From assembly GCF_058153355.1 (NCBI RefSeq), contig NZ_CM177019.1: a stretch of 64,000 nt of DNA; one strand, given 5' to 3'. The notes beneath the pieces are model-generated. The model saw nothing but the letters and a program-made list of their open reading frames with translations. It was not told the DNA's origin and did not search any database. The position numbers and the translations under genes are program-made. Below, piece after piece: positions 46,429 to 60,577 of this stretch; position 1 is the first letter of the stretch; each line of letters begins with the position of its first letter.

Positions 46429-47235
46429 TCAGATTAGATCGGTGTAGTAGGTGAAGTTGCCAAACTGCGGATGTGTCCAGCGCTTGCGGTTACCTTTCGG
46501 CGGTGTCGATTCGTTTAACAGCTTTTGAGCTGCTTGTTCGATCGCTGGGAGCTTAACGAGCAATCCCCGAACACCGGTGTCTGAACGTACCGGTATCTTG
46601 GCGAAGCCGATCAATTTCCGGCATGTTGAATCAGATAAACCTGTTTTCCATGCTGCTTTGCTGACGGGGACATATTCACCGTTACTGTGTGGTTGTGACT
46701 CTCTGACTTGTTGTTTTAAGTCTTCTACCCAGTTGGTTTCATGTCCCGGAGTTGAAAGCGTTACGTTTTGAACTTGCCGGGGAGCCATCACTTCGACAAT
46801 TGCTTTCATCGTGGCGGATGCCGTAGCTTCTGCAACGACACGGGCAAACTGAACGGTGTTGTCGTTTACCTGAATTGCAGGAGCTGGCACCGGTAATGAT
46901 GCCGGACGAGGTTGCTCTAATTCAATCTTCATCGCCTGCCACTGTTCGATGAGTGCCAGCCGGCGTTTTGCGTCGTAACCGGTGACGAGAGTCATGGAAA
47001 GATTTTCATCAAGCCAAATCTCGTCGATGACATCACGTCCCTTGTATTCTTTGCGCTTGATAATAAATCCTTTAAAATCATCATCATCCAAATCTGGACT
47101 ATAGATTTGTAACTGTTCAAGCATAGCCAGAATATCCCGTACAACATGCTTATGCTGTTTTCCAGTGACTTCTGCAATTTTCCGGCTGCCCATCATTGGT
47201 TGCTTGGTATCGTTTATCAGTGTTAAAGTATTCAT
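46429..47235 (-). CDS. Rha-family phage regulatory protein / antirepressor-like
   Basis: ORF 46429..47277 trimmed to MNTLTLINDT start with GGAGAA SD; SRKIAEVTGKQHKHVVRDI matches Rha N-terminal motif. Confidence 0.7.
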   Translation of the reverse strand: MNTLTLINDTKQPMMGSRKIAEVTGKQHKHVVRDILAMLEQLQIYSPDLDDDDFKGFIIKRKEYKGRDVIDEIWLDENLSMTLVTGYDAKRRLALIEQWQAMKIELEQPRPASLPVPAPAIQVNDNTVQFARVVAEATASATMKAIVEVMAPRQVQNVTLSTPGHETNWVEDLKQQVRESQPHSNGEYVPVSKAAWKTGLSDSTCRKLIGFAKIPVRSDTGVRGLLVKLPAIEQAAQKLLNESTPPKGNRKRWTHPQFGNFTYYTDLI

Positions 47236-47294
47236 GCTGTATTCTCCATTCAGTAAAAGATGCGCTGGTAGCTGCAACTATCAGCGCGTTTTGT

Positions 47295-48834: not shown

Positions 48835-51762
48835 TTAATCCTTACGGTAGTGGTACGCCTCAAAACCGCCAGCGTTCAGTGGGATATCGGGCGCCCATTC
48901 GGGGTTAGTGGAGAGAAGCGCGGAAAGCGCTTTATCGTTGAAATCTTCTGTGTCAGGTGCTTCGGTGATCACCTCGTCGTGTACCGTCAGCACAATGCTG
49001 TAACCGGCATCTTCGATAAGCGGCATGTTTCCGGCCAGAACGTCGCGGGCGGCCGCCTGGGTGACGTTCTCTACCAGCTTTCCGCCGTAGGTTTTGAGTC
49101 GTTGCCATTTACGCGAATAAGAGTTAACACCCATGTAGGTGATATTCCCTTTTTCGATAACCGGAGACGGGTAGCATACAGCGCGTCCGGATGGTAGCTG
49201 TATGCGCAGCCACGCGCCATCGCGGCGGATTTTAAGATAACCGCAATACAATGTTTTTTGCGGTGTGGCGATTGCAGTGCGGATGGTGCGCTCCAGTTCG
49301 TACCAGAAATCGCAGGTCGCCGGGTGCGCCCTGCGCCAGAGACGTTTAAGTGAGTCGCAGGCGATAAATACCCGTTCAGAAAGGCCGTAGGTTGACTTAC
49401 GTTTAACCGATTCGTAGTACCAGCTTTTCGCCTCGCGGATAACATCGCGGGGAATGTTTGGCAGTGCGGCGTTCGCCAGCTCGTCGAGATCGAGACTGTA
49501 AACCAGTGCAAAAGTGATGAAGGCCGACACACCACCACCGTACCCGCAGTTGTGAACGATTAAATGTCCTGAGTCGGTTTTAATCGTGAATCTGTTTCGA
49601 GGCCCCGCATGTGCAATGTCGTAAACATCGCTCCAGCTCGTCGATACGTTTTTGCAGGTCTGCGATTTTTCTTCTGTTGCGGTTATTGTCTGCTTTGGAG
49701 ACGAACTGGATATTACCCGGTTCGTAGCCTTTGTTATTGTCGATGCGATCCATTTCCAACTTTGGGTCATTAAACCCTTTGATTTCCCTGACGTGTAGCA
49801 AAAAAGCTCTTTTATCTTCCTGCCATAGCTGACAAACGTAGATCCCCCGACCGCCGTAGTTGTGAAACAACCTGTTGGTGGGTTTATGGCAACGGCTGAT
49901 TGCGGCAGACAATCGGTTAAGTAGCCTGCGACGGGTTTCGTCATCTGCAATAGCATCCGCATAGCATAAGAATTTTTTACGATACTCGTTATGCTTTTTC
50001 TTTGCGCAAATGTTACATCGGGTACTTTTTCCTTTAAGGAGATTGCTGATTGTTGCGGTGTGAGGCATTGCACCACATTTGCATTTGACAAGTATCCTTC
50101 GGTCTTTTCCGGGTACTTTTTCCAGTTCTTTGATAACGGTAAGTTCTCCGAAGCAAGTTCCAGGCTTTGGTGAAGCGTATTTTTGTTTAAAGCGATAAGG
50201 TTTGCCAGCTTCCATCCAGTAGGGGTTAGCACCTGGTGATCCGGGGTCATTTTTGCTCCGTCCAGTGATATTAAGGCTTTGTACCCCCTGTAAATCAGTC
50301 CTTCGTGTTTTACCCATTCTTCTCCGTCCCATAACAAATCCGCGCCCGAAATACTAACAAGCGGCTTATAGCCTTTATCGGTGAGCACTAAAGTATCCGG
50401 AGCTATGCAAGCCAATTCCAGCACTTTACCTATCTGGCGCTGGTCTTTGGTGACGCGCTCAACTTCAATTCCGTAAGCTTTTGCATACGCCAGTTTATAT
50501 AAGTCCGGACCCGTTCCGGCGTCGTACTCTCTGAATGCATTCAGTTTCCATTCTTCTCCCGCCAGCCATGCCAGCATACGGCCTTCAATGTTCGACAAGT
50601 CACTTACCACCAGTTTTTTACCTGTTGGCGCGATAATGCAGCCACGTAACGCTGAACTGGTTAGTTCCATGATATTGTCAAACAGCAGGTCTGCACATCC
50701 GGCTTTCAGTGCTTCGATGCCTTCGTCTATTTGTTCCTGTTTTAGTGAAGGGCGGGGAAGATTCTGGGGCTGGAATAGCCGTCCGGCCCAGCGCCCGGTA
50801 CGTGACGCCCCGCAGAACTGTAGCGTACCGCGTAAGCGCCCGTCGTGGCTTACGCCTTTCATCAGTGCCTTGTATTTACTGGTGCTGGTAGTACTGGCTT
50901 GCTGGCGGATAGCCAGCAGTTCTTTCACGGCAGATGGTAAATCGGGGTCGGCTATACGACGTTCCAGGGTACTGCGTTGCATGTCTGGTAGCTCCACACC
51001 GTAGGATTCAACGATGTGCTTAATCAACGCGTCCCGTTGTGTGGCTGCCTGCACTTCGCCATCAGTCATTTCCTGTGTACGCTTTGCCAGGCGTTTTTGC
51101 TCCTGGTCTACCGCTTCGATCGCAGCGCGCGCGAGTTGAATGTCCATGCAGACGCCCCGGTCGTTGATCTGCTGATCACGATGCCAGAGCGCCAGTTCTG
51201 TCCCCTGATAATTCCACTTCGGCAGACGTTTATAGACTTCGCGCATTGCCTCGATATCCAGCCCGGCGTAAGCAACAAAGCGCCGCCATTCTTCCGGGTG
51301 GGTTTTACTGGTGGCCCGACGCAGTTTGCTGTTTTTCGGGCGTGGCTTACAGAACAGCTGGATCAGCGCTTTACCTTCTTTGTCCTTCGCTTTGTCTTGC
51401 GGGACGCCGAGTATTTCGCAGAGTTCCCCCAGAGACCCCGGGAGGCCGTGCGCCAGCGCCTGCACCATTGTGTCGCGCCAACGTTCGACTGGCGGTGCCA
51501 GTCGCGGCATTGCATAACGCAGGACGGTGCGGTCGAAGTGAGAGTTATGAAAATAAAGCAGGGTCTCAGGGGCTGCGATTGCTTCGTATAAGCCGTGTGG
51601 AATACCACCACCGGCAGTGATATCCCACACGTTTACGGGCCCGTCGTTGATAGCCCATGCGAACAGCATCACTTCAACGCCTTCGGCATACGCATGGGTA
51701 CCGTTCGTAATAGGGATTTCGCAATAGGTTTCCAGGTCGCCCCATAGAATGTTTTCAGACAA
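48835..51762 (-). CDS. Family-A DNA polymerase with 3'-5' exonuclease domain, interrupted by an in-frame intein
   Basis: 975-aa ORF; motif B reads [10 protein letters not shown][intein][10 protein letters not shown]; motif C VHDEV; N-terminal exonuclease domain. Confidence 0.85.
49549..50409 (-). other. Intein (287 codons) within polymerase motif B
   Basis: Starts [10 protein letters not shown], block [10 protein letters not shown], ends HLIVHN followed by Cys; central ~185 residues lack any endonuclease motif in frame. Confidence 0.75.
49580..50332 (-). CDS. HNH/His-Me finger-like endonuclease ORF in alternative frame inside the intein
   Basis: 250-codon ORF offset from polymerase frame; CKCG...CNIC zinc-finger pair and [27 protein letters not shown] resembling HNH motif. 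Confidence 0.45.
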
Positions 51763-51828: not shown

Positions 51829-52620
51829 TTAACGAGGTAAAGTGGGTGGAATATATCTGCCGATGCGGTCTTCTATGGTCGGCAGAGCACACATGCTGTC
51901 GCTGAAGCAATCATGCAACTGGTAAACCAGTTTCGAATCCATTTTTTCGAGGGCAGGCATTAACTGCGAGCGCCAGATTTCATTGATGCGCCGGAAGTTA
52001 TGACAGATGGCGCGGAGATTGTTGATGAACATTTCCTTCTCTGCGTCATTGATTGCTGTCTGCACTTTCTGAATACGCTTTGTGCTGCCGTTCCGGTAAA
52101 AGTCCTTCTGCGCAGCGACAGCCTCATCCACGGTCGGATAGCACCCTAAGTAAACGCTTTTCTCTCCGTCCCATGCATAAGCCCTGTACGGATTGTATTT
52201 GCTCCGGTGATGATAAACCATTTTCGGCAGACACTCCCTGTGCGGCGCCAGTATCGTGGAAGACTGCGGAACAGCGGTTTCTTTCTCGATAAGGTCAAGC
52301 ACCCAGCGACGAAATTCTTTTGCTACAGGAGTACTGGCAAGCATGGCGACTAGATGCGCGCCACGAAGGGAGAAAATGCGCGCTTTTGTACGAAGATTGC
52401 TGTAACCTTTTGATATTCCCGAGCACCTCAAATTGAGGTTCTCGGCGATTACAACCATCTCTGAAGAAAACTCGTCAGCGTTGCGGTTATAAATCTGGGT
52501 TATTTTATCTCCGCGTGAATATTCCAGCGCAGTAGCTAAAGTCGCAGCTGTGAACCACAACTTACCATTGTGTTCGACTGTTTCGAGAACGTGGGATTTG
52601 AAAGTGAGTTGAGAGCTCAT
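51829..52620 (-). CDS. Bro-N domain protein with C-terminal AP2-like domain
   Basis: ORF trimmed to MSSQLTFKSHVLE start; KLWFTAATLATALEY is Bro-N; YAWDGEKSVYLGCYPTVDEAVAAQKDF is AP2-like. Confidence 0.65.
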   Translation of the reverse strand: MSSQLTFKSHVLETVEHNGKLWFTAATLATALEYSRGDKITQIYNRNADEFSSEMVVIAENLNLRCSGISKGYSNLRTKARIFSLRGAHLVAMLASTPVAKEFRRWVLDLIEKETAVPQSSTILAPHRECLPKMVYHHRSKYNPYRAYAWDGEKSVYLGCYPTVDEAVAAQKDFYRNGSTKRIQKVQTAINDAEKEMFINNLRAICHNFRRINEIWRSQLMPALEKMDSKLVYQLHDCFSDSMCALPTIEDRIGRYIPPTLPR

Positions 52621-52946
52621 AGTTTTATGTCCTGGTAGATATTTTGAATTTACCCTTTTTGAGAGGGTGGCCGGGCGCTCAAAACCGCTACCAGTCGGCG
52701 GGCGTATTTCCCTTCGGAAGGGTATTGTATTAGCCGCACGCCCGACCATTGAATTCTCAATATCGTGGACATAAAAAATCCGCATGACTGACGGGCGCGG
52801 TTTCCGCTGGTAATAAAGGTGTTTTGAGCACCATGAAGCGGAATATACCCATTGGTTATCGCGGATGTCAATGTATGCTTTTGCAAAAGGTTGTCATCCC
52901 CTTTGCAAAAACACCCGGCGTGCAACCGGGCGTCTGTGAAGGCGGG

Positions 52947-54021: not shown

Positions 54022-55331
54022 TCAGATGAGGTCTGCGGTTAGCGTATCGTCGGATACGTCGTCGAAATCATTTATAGGGTTGATATTGAGTGCGGGGCGT
54101 GGGTCTGACTCGGGAACGACGGTGGGTTTACCATCAGCTCGTGTTATCAGTGCCTCGACTTTTGACCAACGGCGCGGACTGGCCTTTTTGATAAGTTTTT
54201 CGGCTTTTGTGGGGCTAATAAGTTTAAAGTCGAATACTTCTTCAGTTTTGTACCTGAACTGGTCCTTCAGAAGTGCGCGAGCTGCCTCTTCATCACTCCA
54301 GGCCCGGTTACCTTGTTTTCCTGTTACCAGTTTAAACCCCGGTACCGGATGTCCGGCATTGAGTTCATTGTGAACCCGGTCCCGTACTGCCTTTAGCCAG
54401 GATTCAATAAAGTCGGCCTGACTATAGATCTCCGCAAGCTGCTCAATGGTTAACAGAGGTACACGTGCGCTGGCATTGGTGATTATTTCGCTGACAGGCT
54501 TTGTCAGATCTTCAAAGTCGCTGGCCGCTGTTTGTAAATGCTGCATTTTCTGGGCAGTGCAAATAGCTTTTGCTTTACAGAAGCGGCACTGTTTTTCTCC
54601 AGGTATGAAGTTTTCCAGCGGTAGTGTCTCAATGCCTTCGCATTCAGCAATATTGAGAACAAGGATCGCACTGGTTGCGGCCTCCTGTGCCCGTTCACCG
54701 AAAGACTGAAGTTCCTGTACGGTTAACGACCATTCTGAAACGTGGTTGAGCCTTGGCTGGTGAATAAATAATCTTACAGTCTCAAAGTCATACAGCATGC
54801 TGAATTGTTCGAGCGCACCCAGAGCATACAGTTGTAGTTGCTCATTTTGTTCTGCATCAATGCGGACGCCTTTGCCATATTTCAGGTCGTGGATTTGTAA
54901 TTCGTTACCAGCGATGATTATGCCGTCGGCAGTTCCGAAAGATTCTTCCACCCCCGTTATATGTGAGAAATCAACACGTTGTTCAACCAATAGTTCATTA
55001 TTCTGTGCAAGAGTCCAGACCGTATCAACATACCGGCCAACGGCTTCGACCATTTCATCATCCACCTGTGGGCCAGATGTATCATCAGGATTTTCGCGAA
55101 GGGGGTATGAGCCGAGAAACATAGAAACATAGAAACATTGCATCCGGCGTAGTGTTCCGGGTGGCTTTGCCTGTTTCGTAGAACTTTTTCAGCAAGCGCG
55201 TGCGCTGCAGTGCCCTCGATTGCAAAAGTTGTTTCTTTATCCGGTTGTGTGGCCTCCAGCGCCAGACTTCCTGGGCAGCGCATCCATCGATGCGCTGATG
55301 ATGGAGAAAGTTGTGCGTGAACGTCTGGCAT
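54022..55331 (-). pseudogene. DUF2800-like PD-(D/E)XK nuclease (Cas4-like), frameshifted
   Basis: N-terminal part (from 55331) [15 protein letters not shown] and body (to 54022) with DLKYGKG and C-terminal Cys cluster lie in different frames, switching at the 8-mer repeat. Confidence 0.7.
55115..55138. repeat. Tandem repeat (AGAAACAT)x3
   Basis: Three perfect head-to-tail 8-bp copies at the frame switch in the DUF2800-like gene. Confidence 0.9.
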
Positions 55332-57015: not shown

Positions 57016-57708
57016 TCAGAGCAGAACGGAGTACCAAAATACTTGGCCTATAATCCTGATTTTATTAGCCTCTTGATTAAAATACTCTTCGTCTGCGTAT
57101 TCATCCCTATTGAAAGAGCGTATCCGGAGTCCGCTTGGGAGACGGTACAATAGTTTGACACGAAGTAATCCGTCTTGGTCTATAGCGTACATTTGACCAT
57201 CTTTTACACCTGTTTTTGATGTATCTATGCCGACGACAGCGCCATCCGGTAATACCGGTTCCATGCTGTTGCCGTGGATGCTGACACAAGCCGCACAATT
57301 TACGTCAACACCTGCTTTGCGCAACGTTGAACGGGCGAATCTTAACTTACATCCCATTCGATCTATATCAACATAAGTACCATTACCGGCAGATAGTTCA
57401 ATTTCCTGATAGAACGGTATTTCCACTTCATCATCCTCTAATGGCGTTGATGAGTCCCATACAGAAAACCCCCCTTCAACTTGTGCATTAGAATGTATTT
57501 CTTTGGTATCGCTTGTTTTGCCTGAAAGTAGCCACTCTGGAGAAACGTTCAATGCTTCGGCCAGATTTATAAGATTTTTCCCGTTAGGTGTAGTGTTTCC
57601 GGATTCCCATTGTGAAATCGTGGCTTTAGTTAGACCAATACGTTTAGCAAGCGCATCCTGCGTTAGGTGGACATTGCGACGAGCCTCGCGAATACGATCA
57701 TTAATCAT
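57016..57708 (-). CDS. cI: CI-type phage repressor (HTH + S24 LexA-like peptidase)
   Basis: 230-aa ORF; N-terminal LTQDALAKRIGLTKATISQWESG HTH; C-terminal S24 autopeptidase-like domain. Confidence 0.85.
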   Translation of the reverse strand: MINDRIREARRNVHLTQDALAKRIGLTKATISQWESGNTTPNGKNLINLAEALNVSPEWLLSGKTSDTKEIHSNAQVEGGFSVWDSSTPLEDDEVEIPFYQEIELSAGNGTYVDIDRMGCKLRFARSTLRKAGVDVNCAACVSIHGNSMEPVLPDGAVVGIDTSKTGVKDGQMYAIDQDGLLRVKLLYRLPSGLRIRSFNRDEYADEEYFNQEANKIRIIGQVFWYSVLL

Positions 57709-57821
57709 GGTTTTACCCTCATATAGTTTAGTTAGCTTAACTTAATCAGGGTATCGCTTTCTTGACTTATTGGTTTAGCTTTCTTAACCTCATATAACCA
57801 TATATTTCCTGGGTAACGGTT
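57709..57821. promoter_or_regulatory. Divergent promoter/operator region between cI and cro
   Basis: Rightward TTGACT (57772-57777) and TATAAC (57793-57798); repeated CTTAAC(C) half-sites at 57736 and 57783. Confidence 0.55.
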
Positions 57822-58004
57822 ATGAAAAAAGCAGAAGCAATTGAGCTTGCAGGAAGTAAAGCGAAACTAGCGAGACTATTGAAGGTTTCCAAAGGAGCCG
57901 TATCTCAATGGGGGGAGGAAATTCCAGAGCTAAGAGCTCTTCAACTTGAAAAGATTTTGGAGCAAAAAAATGTAGTCAAACAAAAAGGCGTAACCCATGT
58001 CTGA
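57822..58004 (+). CDS. cro: Cro-like HTH regulator
   Basis: 60-aa ORF with LAGSKAKLARLLKVSKGAVSQW HTH, divergent from cI. Confidence 0.65.
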   Translation: MKKAEAIELAGSKAKLARLLKVSKGAVSQWGEEIPELRALQLEKILEQKNVVKQKGVTHV

Positions 58005-60261
58005 TAACAAACCATGGGGAGCTACGCCCGATGAGTGGTTCCACTTCGATCTGGTGTTGGGGATGACAGACAGGCTTTTACCTGTGGTGTCCAATCCCTG
58101 TGCAGAACTGTCGCCTAATAGCAAGCTGTCTCATAATTTCGGCAAAACTCCCTGTTGCTACAATGGTCAACGTAAGGTTGTTGGTATCCCCGACTGGGCT
58201 AACTATGTTGTTACGGAAAACGATTTTGCCCGGTGGTCGAACGAACCCGATTACGGTATTTGCGTTCGTACTGGCGACGGGGTGGTGGCTCTGGACTGCG
58301 ATATCAATGACGCCGGGATGCAGGAGATCGTACGCAATATTATCCTGTCATGCCTGGGGGAACTTCCGCCACGTCGCTGGCGGGCTGACAGTCATAAATG
58401 CCTGTACCTGATTGCTGTTGATGGCGACTACCGTAAACGTGGTCACCGCCTGGAAGGCGAAAATAAACAAATAGAGCTGCTCGCTAAGGGCCAGCAGTTT
58501 GTGGCTTGTGGTACCCATCCGGCAGGCGAACGTATTCAGTGGGACTGCGGTTTGCCCGGCGAACCTCTGAAAATTACATCTGAACAGCTCGAAAGCCTGT
58601 GGCAGCGCCTGGCGGATAACTTACCCGTGAAAGACAGCTATACCGCAGGTGCGGGACGTCAGCGTGACCTTTCCTGTGTCGATCCTTCCGCGACAGATGA
58701 TGTCGCCGACTGGCTTGACGCGAACGGGTGGACTCTGTCGGTCAGCTCTGATGGTTCCCGCAATCTGAAACCGTTTCGGGATGAGTCAGAATACAGCAAC
58801 GGTTGCAGCGAAACATCCATTAAGTATTTCCCAAAAGGGACGGGGGGATTTGAACAGGGACATTTTAAAAGCATGCACAACACCGATGCGGGGCTTACTG
58901 ATGCCGACTGGCTGGAAGGCTACGGCTATACGCAATCTCTGTTCGAAGATCTCACGGTGGCTGAAGATGGCGATAAGCCTGAATTTACCGATATTAATAC
59001 AGATATGACAGCCCATTTTCTGGAACGCTTTATCTACGTCATCGAGGGTGACCAGGTATGTGATCTTAGCCGACCGCCATATCAGTGCATGATGGATATG
59101 AAGTCGTTCAAAAACCTGATGGCGCCTTACCAGTTCCCGCCAGAAGGGAAAGGGCAACCAGTCCCCGCAACCAAACGGTGGATAGAGCATCGGCATAAGA
59201 AGATTGCTGAGACGACAGGCTATAAGCCCGGTGCGGGACGTATTATCGAGCGTTTCGACGGGCGGTTTGAAATAAACGAATTTTATATGCCTGAACATCC
59301 ACGTACAGCGGATACAAGTAAGGTGTCCACGTTCCTTAATCATATGGCGTATCTGGTACCTGATGCCTGGCAGCGCGAGTTTTTCATCGCCCGTCTGGGA
59401 TGGATGGTTCAGCGTCCGGAGCGTCGATGCCCGATTTCTATTCTGCATGTGGCTACCGCACATGGTACGGGCAGAGGATGGGTCAGCCAGTTAATGGAGC
59501 GTGTGCTTGGTCCGTGGAACTGTGCTCGTACTCGCATGAAGATCCTGTGCGATAACCAGTTCCATGACTATCTGTACAATACGCTTCTATGCACCATTGA
59601 CGAGGTGCGCGAAAACGATAAGCGGTATGAGGTGAACGATAAGATCCGTGACGTGCTGACAGAACCACGGTTTGAAGTGAACCGCAAATATGGCAGCAAA
59701 AAAACGATGGATATATACACTGGCTTTCTGTTCTACACCAACCACTTTGATGCGCTGGCGCTGCCAGAGGAAGACAGACGTATCGCTGTGCTGGGGGGGC
59801 CTGACTTCGCCGCAACTGAAGAGCATTACGCCAGCCTGTACGGTGCGCTAAGCGACAGCGACTTTATCGCCCAGGTGTACTGGTATCTGATGGGTGTTGA
59901 CCTGTCTCGCTTTAACTGGCAGCGCGCCCCCGAGACGAAAGAACGCTTTCTGATGATTGAAAGCAATAAGAGCGATGTGGAGGCTGCTCTTATTGAAATC
60001 CTGGATAATCCGCCTGTGCCAGCAATGACTTATCAACAAATTGTTAACGCAATACTGGCAGAAGCAGGAATGGATGTAGAAATTAACCAGAAGCACATAA
60101 CAAAGCTATTGCGAGAAAAAACAAAAAGACAGCCAACAGATTTAGTAAAAATTGACGGAATGGGTTATCGCTTCTGGATACTTGCAAAAAATTGCGACTT
60201 CAATAATGAGGAATTGCGCGAAATATATAAAACTTGCGAAATTTTGCAATCTGGATTGTAA
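57997..60261 (+). CDS. Bifunctional primase-polymerase (PrimPol) fused to C-terminal NTPase/helicase-like domain
   Basis: 754-aa ORF; N-terminal PrimPol-like region; Walker B-like LLCTIDEV; start overlaps cro stop. Confidence 0.75.
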   Translation: MSDNKPWGATPDEWFHFDLVLGMTDRLLPVVSNPCAELSPNSKLSHNFGKTPCCYNGQRKVVGIPDWANYVVTENDFARWSNEPDYGICVRTGDGVVALDCDINDAGMQEIVRNIILSCLGELPPRRWRADSHKCLYLIAVDGDYRKRGHRLEGENKQIELLAKGQQFVACGTHPAGERIQWDCGLPGEPLKITSEQLESLWQRLADNLPVKDSYTAGAGRQRDLSCVDPSATDDVADWLDANGWTLSVSSDGSRNLKPFRDESEYSNGCSETSIKYFPKGTGGFEQGHFKSMHNTDAGLTDADWLEGYGYTQSLFEDLTVAEDGDKPEFTDINTDMTAHFLERFIYVIEGDQVCDLSRPPYQCMMDMKSFKNLMAPYQFPPEGKGQPVPATKRWIEHRHKKIAETTGYKPGAGRIIERFDGRFEINEFYMPEHPRTADTSKVSTFLNHMAYLVPDAWQREFFIARLGWMVQRPERRCPISILHVATAHGTGRGWVSQLMERVLGPWNCARTRMKILCDNQFHDYLYNTLLCTIDEVRENDKRYEVNDKIRDVLTEPRFEVNRKYGSKKTMDIYTGFLFYTNHFDALALPEEDRRIAVLGGPDFAATEEHYASLYGALSDSDFIAQVYWYLMGVDLSRFNWQRAPETKERFLMIESNKSDVEAALIEILDNPPVPAMTYQQIVNAILAEAGMDVEINQKHITKLLREKTKRQPTDLVKIDGMGYRFWILAKNCDFNNEELREIYKTCEILQSGL

Positions 60262-60530
60262 AAAGGTAACAGTAAGGTAACAGTAAAACGACTAACTGTT
60301 ACCTTGAAAATATCAATAAATTCACATGGATAGCTAAAAAAGGTAACAGGTAACAGTAGTATTTAGTTTATATACGCGAGACTTTATATTATACGTGCTA
60401 TACCTGCACATACGTATATAGAACTAAAAGCAACTGTTACCTGTTACCCAAAACGGGGTTAAGCCTTATGTGGCACGCCCTACAGGAGGTAACAGTTAGC
60501 TATTTATCTGTTACCTTACTGTTACCTCAA
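60262..60530. repeat. Iteron array, putative phage origin of replication
   Basis: Ten copies of GGTAACAG (five per orientation, several as tandem pairs) flanking an AT-rich core at 60361-60420. Confidence 0.75.
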
Positions 60531-60577
60531 CAATAAACTTGCAGAAAACTGCAAATAGCTAAGTGGAGTAAACAAAC

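What the first reader, a model, noticed from the sequence alone, without database searches (positions are those of the whole stretch)
59446..59481. PrimPol-helicase C-terminal domain with an atypical P-loop
At the position where an SF3/D5-type Walker A (GxxxxGKS/T) would be expected the protein reads HVATAHGTGRGW, with no Lys-Ser/Thr, although a Walker B-like LLCTIDEV follows. It may be an NTPase with a non-canonical P-loop or a degenerate domain retained for origin binding. This rests on visual alignment only.
Basis: inference. Interest (0 to 1): 0.3.

Follow-up and report, generated by a model that had tools for sequence, protein, structure and literature searches.

The report
Phage helicase with arginine-type P-loop
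A prophage replication protein (primase-polymerase fused to a ring helicase) carries arginine where virtually all P-loop NTPases have an essential lysine, and this swap is conserved and under selection across a large, undescribed phage clade rather than being decay, which makes it a natural test of whether arginine can do the lysine's job.

Summary
HVATAHGTGRGW is aa 484-495 of a 754-aa ORF (57997-60261, +). Sequence, profile and fold alignments all place R493 on the catalytic Walker A lysine (K453) of the phage NrS-1 helicase, and no canonical Walker A exists elsewhere in the protein. The motif is not a degenerate relic. In 150 R-type sequences, Arg is invariant and so is the rest of the ATPase set: Walker B Glu, sensor-1 Asn, the Arg finger and the channel-hairpin Lys. 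All six Arg codons are used in genuine loci, and the helicase half is under stronger purifying selection (dN/dS about 0.03-0.07) than the PrimPol half. Of 146 cluster representatives (50% identity), 142 carry GxGRG. All six deposited phage relatives I checked carry Lys. Origin binding maps to a different part of the protein: a C-terminal winged-helix tail whose wing residues co-vary with a dyad-symmetric iteron array just downstream (60262-60577). Best reading: a working SF3 initiator-helicase with an arginine-type P-loop. Whether it hydrolyses NTP fast or slowly needs biochemistry. I class it as a new variant of a known kind, of moderate interest.

The parts
57997..60261 (+). PrimPol-helicase gene (754 aa). 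Its ATG overlaps the stop of the cro-like gene by 8 nt (ATGTCTGA).
   Evidence: annotated as 'DUF5906 domain-containing protein' in E. coli genomes
58228..58551 (+). AEP Prim-Pol catalytic core (aa 78-185). The DxD motif (D100, D102) lies at 58294-58302.
   Evidence: Pfam PF09250 31.2 bits vs 22.8 cutoff; D100/D102 nearly invariant in 90 homologues; profile hits pRN1 ORF904
59287..59916 (+). SF3 / DUF5906 (NrS-1/D5-like) AAA+ ATPase core, aa 431-640
   Evidence: Pfam PF19263 52.1 bits vs 27.6 cutoff; NrS-1 CTR E=1e-38 by profile and E=3e-19, TM 0.67 by Foldseek
59446..59481 (+). Arginine-type P-loop HVATAHGTGRGW. R493 (codon AGA, 59473-59475) occupies the Walker A Lys position and G494 the Ser/Thr position.
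   Evidence: R 150/150, G492 150/150, G494 143/150 in R-type sequences
59581..59607 (+). Walker B TLLCTIDEV. E536 (59602-59604) is 149/150 conserved; the preceding acidic position (D535) is variable in the clade.
59668..59712 (+). Central-channel beta-hairpin with K564 (59686-59688), equivalent to NrS-1 K525
   Evidence: strands 558-562 and 568-572 in the model; K 148/150; NrS-1 K525A loses unwinding
59740..59742 (+). Sensor-1 / motif C Asn (N582)
   Evidence: 147/150 in R-type, 10/10 in K-type
59773..59781 (+). D593-R594-R595 arginine-finger pair, equivalent to NrS-1 R555/R556
   Evidence: R595 150/150, R594 144/150; NrS-1 mutant data
59917..60258 (+). C-terminal winged-helix tail (aa 641-754). 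The segment aa 703-736 (60103-60204) is the putative iteron-specificity determinant.
60262..60577 (.). Putative origin of replication: AT-rich region (GC about 31%) with 10 GGTAACAG iterons, 5 per strand, in the dyad-symmetric layout ->-><- ... ->-> [AT-rich core about 60357-60433] <-<- ... -><-<-
   Evidence: 14 sites in the window vs 1.4 expected; 10 of them here; the same architecture with other iteron sequences in L009, L010, L011
57822..58004 (+). cro-like HTH gene immediately upstream in the same early rightward operon
57016..57708 (-). cI-like repressor (HTH plus S24 peptidase), divergently transcribed

Best explanation
The C-terminal half is a genuine NrS-1/poxvirus-D5-type SF3 ring ATPase, not a relic. 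Its nucleotide site has been remodelled. Arg493 replaces the Walker A lysine, Gly494 replaces the Mg-binding Ser/Thr, and the first Walker A glycine is lost. Every other element needed to bind and hydrolyse NTP at a subunit interface and to grip DNA in the central channel is retained: Walker B Glu536, sensor-1 Asn582, Arg finger R594/R595 and hairpin Lys564. The proposed mechanism is as follows. After the cI-like repressor is inactivated, the gene is expressed together with cro. The winged-helix tail (aa 641-754) recognises the inverted AGGTAACAG iterons just downstream of the gene. Rings, probably two in head-to-head orientation as for SV40 LTag, papillomavirus E1 and mpox E5, assemble around the AT-rich core. 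NTP bound through Arg493, the P-loop backbone and the neighbouring subunit's Arg finger drives melting and translocation. The N-terminal PrimPol then primes for the phage Pol A, working with the SSB, SNF2 helicase and nucleases of the same module. What is shown: the homology, the fold, the position of Arg493, its conservation and selection, the iteron array and its co-variation with the tail. What is inferred: NTP binding and hydrolysis by the Arg-type site, hexamer formation, origin function and the double-hexamer geometry.
For: R493 aligns to NrS-1 K453, with the expected strand-loop-helix topology at pLDDT 97-98. The top fold hits are NrS-1 CTR, mpox E5, vaccinia D5, ASFV PrimPol and SaPI5 PriRep. 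In 150 R-type sequences (pairwise identity median 35%, minimum 19%), R493, G492 and R595 are 150/150, E536 is 149, K564 is 148, N582 is 147 and R594 is 144. In NrS-1 these equivalent residues are needed for dNTPase and unwinding activity. All six Arg codons occur in the 36 genuine IMG/VR loci, and there is no genuine HGTGKGW locus. dN/dS for the helicase half is 0.03-0.07, against 0.09-0.12 for the PrimPol half. The helicase core is 97-100% identical among prophages whose PrimPol half is only 63-69% identical. R-type and K-type proteins sit in the same replication module (Pol A, Enc34 SSB, DUF2800, VRR-NUC, SNF2). NrS-1, which has GKG with no Ser/Thr and NE in Walker B, is an active (d)NTPase and helicase, so part of this deviation is already compatible with activity. 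Origin evidence.
Against: There are no biochemical data for any R-type member. Engineered Walker A Lys-to-Arg mutants usually keep nucleotide binding but hydrolyse very slowly, for example RecA K72R. A survey of more than 3000 P-loop sites treats Lys(WA), Ser/Thr(K+1) and Asp(WB) as strictly conserved, and the R-type lacks the first two and varies the third. The module also encodes a separate SNF2-type helicase, so fork unwinding need not depend on this domain. Conservation of the catalytic residues fits a slow switch equally well. I could not inspect side-chain geometry or model a nucleotide-bound hexamer.
Confidence: 0.6

Rival explanations
1. A nucleotide-binding switch that hydrolyses poorly. 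The Arg-type site binds NTP tightly and turns over slowly, so the ring acts as a long-lived origin-melting and primase-loading platform in the manner of an ORC/Cdc6/DnaA/DnaC-type initiator. Processive unwinding is left to the phage SNF2 helicase or to host DnaB.
For: Engineered K-to-R mutants bind ATP but hydrolyse slowly and form hyperstable assemblies (RecA K72R). A separate SNF2/DEAD helicase is always nearby. Switch-type AAA+ initiators also keep Walker B, sensor and Arg-finger residues, so the conservation seen is compatible. In NrS-1 the authors likewise propose that the helicase domain has a role distinct from that of the phage-encoded helicase.
Against: K-type relatives (Chi, Enc34-like) live in the same module with the same SNF2 helicase, so the partner helicase does not explain why only this clade has Arg. 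The channel-hairpin Lys, needed for unwinding in NrS-1, is 148/150 conserved. A clade has had time to evolve compensating changes (Gly at K+1 in 95%, Trp at K+2, loss of Gly at K-6) that a point mutant lacks.
Confidence: 0.3
2. A degenerate pseudo-ATPase. The domain no longer binds nucleotide and is kept only as an oligomerisation scaffold or origin-binding module.
For: All three canonical Walker A hallmarks are missing (first Gly, Lys, Ser/Thr) and the first Walker B acid is variable.
Against: The Arg finger (150/150), Walker B Glu (149/150) and sensor-1 Asn (147/150) have no known role apart from the nucleotide site, yet they are invariant. The P-loop itself (GxGRG) is invariant and maintained through synonymous codon turnover. 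The lowest dN/dS in the gene is in this half. Origin specificity maps to the winged-helix tail rather than to this domain.
Confidence: 0.05
3. An artefact: misalignment, a canonical Walker A elsewhere, a sequencing error or a pseudogene.
For: The original call rested only on visual alignment.
Against: There is no alternative Walker A anywhere in the protein. Three independent alignment methods agree. The same peptide is present in 44 near-full-length E. coli genome copies, 4 isolated phages and hundreds of clusters. The ORF is intact.
Confidence: 0.01

Closest known systems
Nitratiruptor phage NrS-1 polymerase gp28 (PrimPol plus SF3 helicase; PDB 6K9C/6K9E/6LRB; PMC7102993)
   Same: It has the same architecture (N-terminal PrimPol, head, DUF5906 ATPase, tail) and is the best sequence, profile and fold match. 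It shares GTG-x-G with Gly at K+1, the NRK hairpin, the S/T-N sensor and the DRR finger. It is also encoded in the early region of a temperate phage, next to a cII-like regulator gene.
   Different: NrS-1 has Lys453 and the first Walker A Gly (GKQGTGKG), whereas the query has Arg493 and no first Gly (TAHGTGRG). Identity is only about 22%. NrS-1 activity has been measured; the query's has not.
Poxvirus D5 / mpox E5 and ASFV C962R primase-helicases
   Same: AEP primase fused to a D5-type SF3 hexameric helicase; Foldseek E=1e-11 to 1e-9. E5 forms head-to-head double hexamers at unwinding initiation (PMC12137749, abstract seen), which matches the dyad-symmetric origin found here.
   Different: They are eukaryotic-virus proteins with canonical GxxxxGK[ST], D5_N/Pox_D5 flanking domains and no winged-helix iteron-binding tail of this type.
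Chi-like / Nazgul-like phage primases (Chi gp2, Enc34, BcepNazgul, AXY1)
   Same: DUF5906 primase-helicases inside the same replication module: Pol A, DUF2815 SSB, VRR-NUC, SNF2 helicase and DUF2800.
   Different: They are K-type (GSGKT, GDGKS), 24-27% identical, from virulent or other phage lineages.
Satellite phage P4 alpha, SaPI5 PriRep, pRN1 ORF904
   Same: Self-contained initiator proteins with primase, SF3 helicase and origin-binding functions. The SaPI5 and PriRep1 folds match and pRN1 ORF904 matches the PrimPol half.
   Different: They have canonical Walker A Lys. P4 alpha uses a different primase and origin organisation (from my own knowledge).
Engineered Walker A Lys-to-Arg mutants (e.g. 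RecA K72R)
   Same: The same residue substitution at the same structural position.
   Different: Those are single laboratory mutations that cripple hydrolysis. Here Arg is the wild-type, clade-wide state, accompanied by changes at K-6, K+1 and K+2.

Membership tests
SF3 helicase, D5/NrS-1-like (Pfam DUF5906, PF19263) | Significant match to the family profile | tested here: met
   52.1 bits vs gathering cutoff 27.6, aa 488-595; PHROG 1156 E=6e-84
SF3 helicase, D5/NrS-1-like (Pfam DUF5906, PF19263) | AAA+ alpha/beta fold superposable on a solved member | tested here: met
   Foldseek NrS-1 CTR E=3e-19, TM 0.67 normalised to the target, then E5, D5, C962R and PriRep; model pLDDT 90.4
SF3 helicase, D5/NrS-1-like (Pfam DUF5906, PF19263) | Walker A GxxxxGK[S/T] with catalytic Lys | tested here: not met
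   The aligned site reads TAHGTGRG: Gly(K-6) is Thr, Lys is Arg, Ser/Thr is Gly. No canonical motif exists elsewhere.
SF3 helicase, D5/NrS-1-like (Pfam DUF5906, PF19263) | Walker B acidic residue(s) at the end of a hydrophobic strand | tested here: met
   LLCTIDEV; E536 149/150. The first acid is variable, as it is in NrS-1 (NE).
SF3 helicase, D5/NrS-1-like (Pfam DUF5906, PF19263) | Motif C / sensor-1 Asn | tested here: met
   N582, 147/150
SF3 helicase, D5/NrS-1-like (Pfam DUF5906, PF19263) | Trans-acting arginine finger | tested here: met
   R594-R595 align to NrS-1 R555-R556; R595 150/150
SF3 helicase, D5/NrS-1-like (Pfam DUF5906, PF19263) | DNA-binding beta-hairpin in the central channel | tested here: met
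   Hairpin 558-572 in the model; K564 corresponds to NrS-1 K525 and is 148/150 conserved
SF3 helicase, D5/NrS-1-like (Pfam DUF5906, PF19263) | Hexameric ring, NTPase and 3'-5' unwinding activity | not testable with these tools
   Needs purified protein, or multimer and ligand modelling
Archaeo-eukaryotic primase, Prim-Pol (PF09250) | Profile match and catalytic DxD plus downstream His | tested here: met
   31.2 bits vs 22.8 cutoff; ALDCDIN with D100/D102 nearly invariant; GTH at aa 172-174; pRN1 ORF904 hit
Pseudo-ATPase / degenerate AAA+ domain | Loss or drift of several catalytic residues and relaxed selection | tested here: not met
   Only the Walker A residues differ and the rest is invariant; omega 0.03-0.07
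Winged-helix origin-binding domain (tail, aa 641-754) | Winged-helix fold, cognate repeated sites nearby, and specificity residues that track the site sequence | tested here: met

The most novel reading that the evidence does not exclude
The GxGRG P-loop is a fully competent catalytic site. In that case a whole clade of ring helicases hydrolyses NTP and unwinds DNA without the Walker A lysine, without the Mg-binding Ser/Thr and with a variable Walker B aspartate position. That would be a distinct, naturally evolved solution to triphosphate and Mg coordination in P-loop NTPases, and it would show that Lys-to-Arg is not intrinsically ATPase-dead.
Probability: 0.35. Interest if true: 0.75.

Novelty: new variant of a known kind. 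Interest (0 to 1): 0.5.

Why it matters
The Walker A lysine is treated as a near-universal, essential residue of P-loop NTPases, and Lys-to-Arg is the textbook way to build a mutant that binds nucleotide but cannot hydrolyse it. Here nature has fixed Arg in at least 142 protein clusters (50% identity) of phage replication initiators and kept every other catalytic residue intact. That gives a clean, genetically tractable system in an inducible E. coli prophage for two questions: can Arg support hydrolysis in a suitably remodelled P-loop, or do some viral initiators deliberately run a slow nucleotide clock? There is also a practical point. Annotation rules and catalytic-site filters that require GK[ST] will wrongly label this clade as inactive. 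The associated tail and iteron sets are a ready-made case of origin-specificity switching.

Tried and rejected
1. I searched the whole protein for a canonical or relaxed Walker A and found none.
2. I looked for a relocated lysine (WNK-like), meaning a Lys conserved only in R-type sequences. No R-type-specific conserved Lys appears among columns with 80% or more conservation, but only 10 K-type sequences were available for contrast.
3. NCBIfam gave no meaningful hit.
4. The search for related loci with the 90-sequence alignment failed because it had no conserved stretch. I replaced it with degenerate DNA-pattern scans. 84 of the first 120 R-pattern matches and all 14 K-pattern matches were out-of-frame chance hits.
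5. A search seeded with the four K-type intermediates returned only 2 proteins, so the K/R boundary stays thinly sampled.
6. NJ trees with bootstrap were too saturated to place those intermediates. They imply at least 3 K<->R changes, but I do not rely on that.
7. Literature searches for natural Walker A Arg, 'GTGRG' and DUF5906 found no description of this clade. The library is limited to open-access papers, so this absence is weak evidence.
8. A specific partner gene explaining the Arg was rejected, because the same replication module accompanies K-type primases.

Full report
OBSERVATION. window:59446-59481 on the + strand translates to HVATAHGTGRGW. This is aa 484-495 of a 754-aa ORF, 57997..60261. 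The Arg codon is AGA (59473-59475). LLCTIDEV follows at aa 530-537. A scan of the whole protein finds no GxxxxGK[ST], no relaxed [AG]xxxxGK[STG] and no GxGK. The only GK[STG] tripeptides (aa 49 and 384) lie outside the ATPase core.

WHAT THE PROTEIN IS. Pfam gives Prim-Pol (aa 78-185, 31.2 bits vs 22.8) and DUF5906 (aa 488-595, 52.1 bits vs 27.6). PHROGs gives phrog_1156 'DNA primase', E=6e-84. The best solved relative is the C-terminal region of the phage NrS-1 polymerase (6K9C/6K9E), at E=7e-8 with the single sequence and E=1e-38 with a profile of 90 homologues. Both alignments put HGTGRGW on QGTGKGL. In NrS-1 the Walker A is 447-GKQGTGKG-454, and Lys453 is described as corresponding to the catalytic lysine of SF3 helicases and binds a phosphate in the crystal structure. 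K525 (hairpin) and R555/R556 (Arg fingers) are needed for dNTPase and unwinding activity (PMC7102993). An AlphaFold2 model of the whole protein is confident (mean pLDDT 90.4; 97-98 around the motif). It shows strand 481-485, loop 486-492 and helix 493-504, the classic P-loop topology, with Arg493 as the first helix residue. Foldseek against PDB returns NrS-1 CTR (E=3e-19, TM 0.67 normalised to the target), then mpox E5, vaccinia D5, ASFV C962R, SaPI5 primase-helicase and PriRep1. Arg493 therefore sits exactly where the Walker A lysine belongs. Gly494 sits where the Mg-binding Ser/Thr belongs, as in NrS-1. The first Walker A glycine (K-6) is also absent.

NOT A ONE-OFF AND NOT DECAY. Every close homologue from E. 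coli, Salmonella, Citrobacter, Klebsiella, Serratia, Xenorhabdus, Arsenophonus and Limnobaculum, down to 43% identity in this domain, keeps GTGRGW. One exception, P0053, looks like a bad local alignment. An exhaustive HMMER search of 1.84 billion cluster representatives with aa 430-754 found 7344 relatives (E<=1e-3). Of the 146 best that could be aligned across the site, 142 have GxGR[G/S/T] and 4 have GxGK. In an alignment of 150 R-type and 10 K-type domains (R-R pairwise identity median 35%, minimum 19%), the R-type shows R493 150/150, G492 150/150, R595 150/150, E536 149, K564 148, N582 147, R594 144 and D593 142. These residues are the same in K-type relatives. Features that go with Arg are Gly at K+1 (143/150, versus S/T/G in K-type), Trp at K+2 (123/150), His at K-4 (110/150) and loss of Gly at K-6. 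The residue before the Walker B Glu is variable (E/D/H/P/G...), as it also is in NrS-1 (Asn). No R-type-specific conserved lysine that could act as a relocated catalytic Lys was seen.

The matched control HGTGKGW gave 14 matches, none of them genuine. The 36 loci use all six Arg codons (AGA 11, AGG 11, CGC 5, CGT 4, CGG 3, CGA 2), so Arg has been held through synonymous turnover. Nei-Gojobori dN/dS against related loci is 0.03-0.07 for the helicase half and 0.09-0.12 for the PrimPol half where dS is informative. Among enterobacterial prophages the helicase core stays 97-100% identical while the PrimPol half drops to 63-69%. These results exclude relaxed selection.

HOW UNUSUAL IT IS. All six deposited phage relatives I examined are K-type: NrS-1 GTGKG, RDJL3 GTGKS, Chi GSGKT, AXY1 GDGKS, PW916 GTGKS and Vibrio 1.093.O GNGKT. 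Among 50,697 deposited phage genomes, only four E. coli phages carry a close copy, and every other hit is below 30% identity. Four K-type sequences (e.g. SKAHGIGKSW, SLYQGVGKGW) already lack Gly(K-6) and share the H...GW signature. Their nearest neighbours are mostly R-types. They look like intermediates, but the deep tree is unresolved. Named carriers are Enterobacterales, Pasteurellaceae and a gammaproteobacterial MAG; most are unnamed metagenomic contigs. A survey of more than 3000 P-loop catalytic sites treats Lys(WA), Ser/Thr(K+1) and Asp(WB) as strictly conserved (PMC9599734). The engineered equivalent, RecA K72R, binds ATP but hydrolyses it slowly (PMC3458574). I found no paper describing this clade or the GTGRG motif, but the searchable library is incomplete.

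CONTEXT. The window holds a temperate E. coli prophage. The gene is 97-99% identical to copies in 47 of 5426 complete E. coli genomes and in four induced phages. It lies immediately after a cro-like gene, with an 8-nt ATGTCTGA overlap, and opposite a cI-like repressor. It is followed by Q, lysis genes and terminase. The leftward operon encodes DUF2800 nuclease, Enc34-type SSB, Pol A, DUF4406, a VRR-NUC-like ORF and an SNF2 helicase. The same module accompanies R-type genes at 41-46% identity. It also accompanies K-type primases of Chi/Enc34-like phages, so the partner genes do not explain the Arg. The same PrimPol (97% identical) is fused in other prophages to a VapE domain that keeps Lys-Ser, which shows that the ATPase module is exchangeable.

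MECHANISM AND RIVALS. The best reading (0.6) is a working SF3 initiator-helicase whose P-loop uses Arg. The tail reads the inverted iterons. Rings assemble around the AT-rich core, plausibly head-to-head as in LTag, E1 and E5. NTP held by Arg493, the P-loop backbone and the neighbouring Arg finger powers melting and translocation, and the PrimPol primes for the phage Pol A. The main rival (0.3) is a tight-binding, slow-hydrolysing nucleotide switch that leaves unwinding to the SNF2 helicase or to DnaB. Sequence data cannot separate these two. A nucleotide-free degenerate scaffold (0.05) is contradicted by the invariant Arg finger, Walker B Glu and sensor-1 Asn, and by the low dN/dS. An artefact (0.01) is excluded.

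VERDICT. The finding is a new variant of a known kind: a large, previously unremarked clade of D5/NrS-1-type helicases with an arginine-type Walker A. Interest is moderate (0.5). The finding is surprising to P-loop and AAA+ specialists and directly testable in E. coli, but its functional meaning is still inferred.

Noticed in passing
window 60262-60577: AT-rich intergenic region with 10 GGTAACAG iterons (5 per strand) in a nested dyad-symmetric layout around an AT-rich core. It is a probable phage origin of replication. Analogous arrays with different repeat sequences follow diverged homologues (L009 12267-12560, L010 9482-9744, L011 5116-5367).
   Followed up: yes
window 60103-60204 (aa 703-736 of the PrimPol-helicase): Loop and beta-wing residues of the C-terminal winged-helix tail switch in step with the central bases of the downstream iteron (AAC-A, GAC-G, GGC-A, GTC-A, GAC-A) among prophages whose helicase core is 97-100% identical. 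This looks like a set of origin-specificity types.
   Followed up: yes
window 54022-55331 (-), indel at ~55131-55138: The DUF2800 PD-(D/E)XK nuclease gene is frameshifted by an 8-bp tandem duplication (ATGTTTCT, three copies versus two in intact relatives L001 and L002). This splits it into two overlapping ORFs. It could be a pseudogene, slip-strand variation or an assembly error.
   Followed up: partly
window 57997-59286 versus proteins P0046-P0120; locus L019: There is domain-level mosaicism. The same PrimPol N-half (up to 97% identical) is fused to a VapE (PF05272) ATPase in other enterobacterial prophages. Conversely, L019 has a 98%-identical helicase half with a 69%-identical PrimPol half.
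   Followed up: partly
proteins P0046, P0050, P0071 (VapE-fused relatives): Their VapE domain has a mildly deviant Walker A, SQQGKNKS (first Gly is Ser, and the Gly before Lys is Asn), where sister sequences have GPQGCGKS.
   Followed up: no
window 51829-52785 (-) and 46429-47277 (-): Bro-N and Rha family genes are inserted within the leftward replication operon (between Pol A and the SSB, and next to the SNF2 helicase). Neither is annotated in the corresponding stretch of E. coli B771 (L001).
   Followed up: no
window 57709-57821: The cI-cro intergenic region carries short direct repeats (GGTATCGCTTTCTTGAC / GGTTTAGCTTTCTTAAC at 57750 and 57772; TTACCCTCATATA / TTAACCTCATATA at 57713 and 57784) that may be operators.
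   Followed up: no
window 59473-59475: Arg493 is encoded by AGA, a rare codon in E. coli that is one transition away from AAA (Lys). AGA and AGG together make up 22 of the 36 Arg codons at this site in genuine IMG/VR loci.
   Followed up: partly
window 48835-51762 (-): The Pol A reading frame stays open for about 288 codons upstream of the start used in relatives (687 aa), and it matches only part of the DNA_pol_A profile (positions 72-214 of 381). This is a divergent family A polymerase, and the upstream extension is probably not coding.
   Followed up: no
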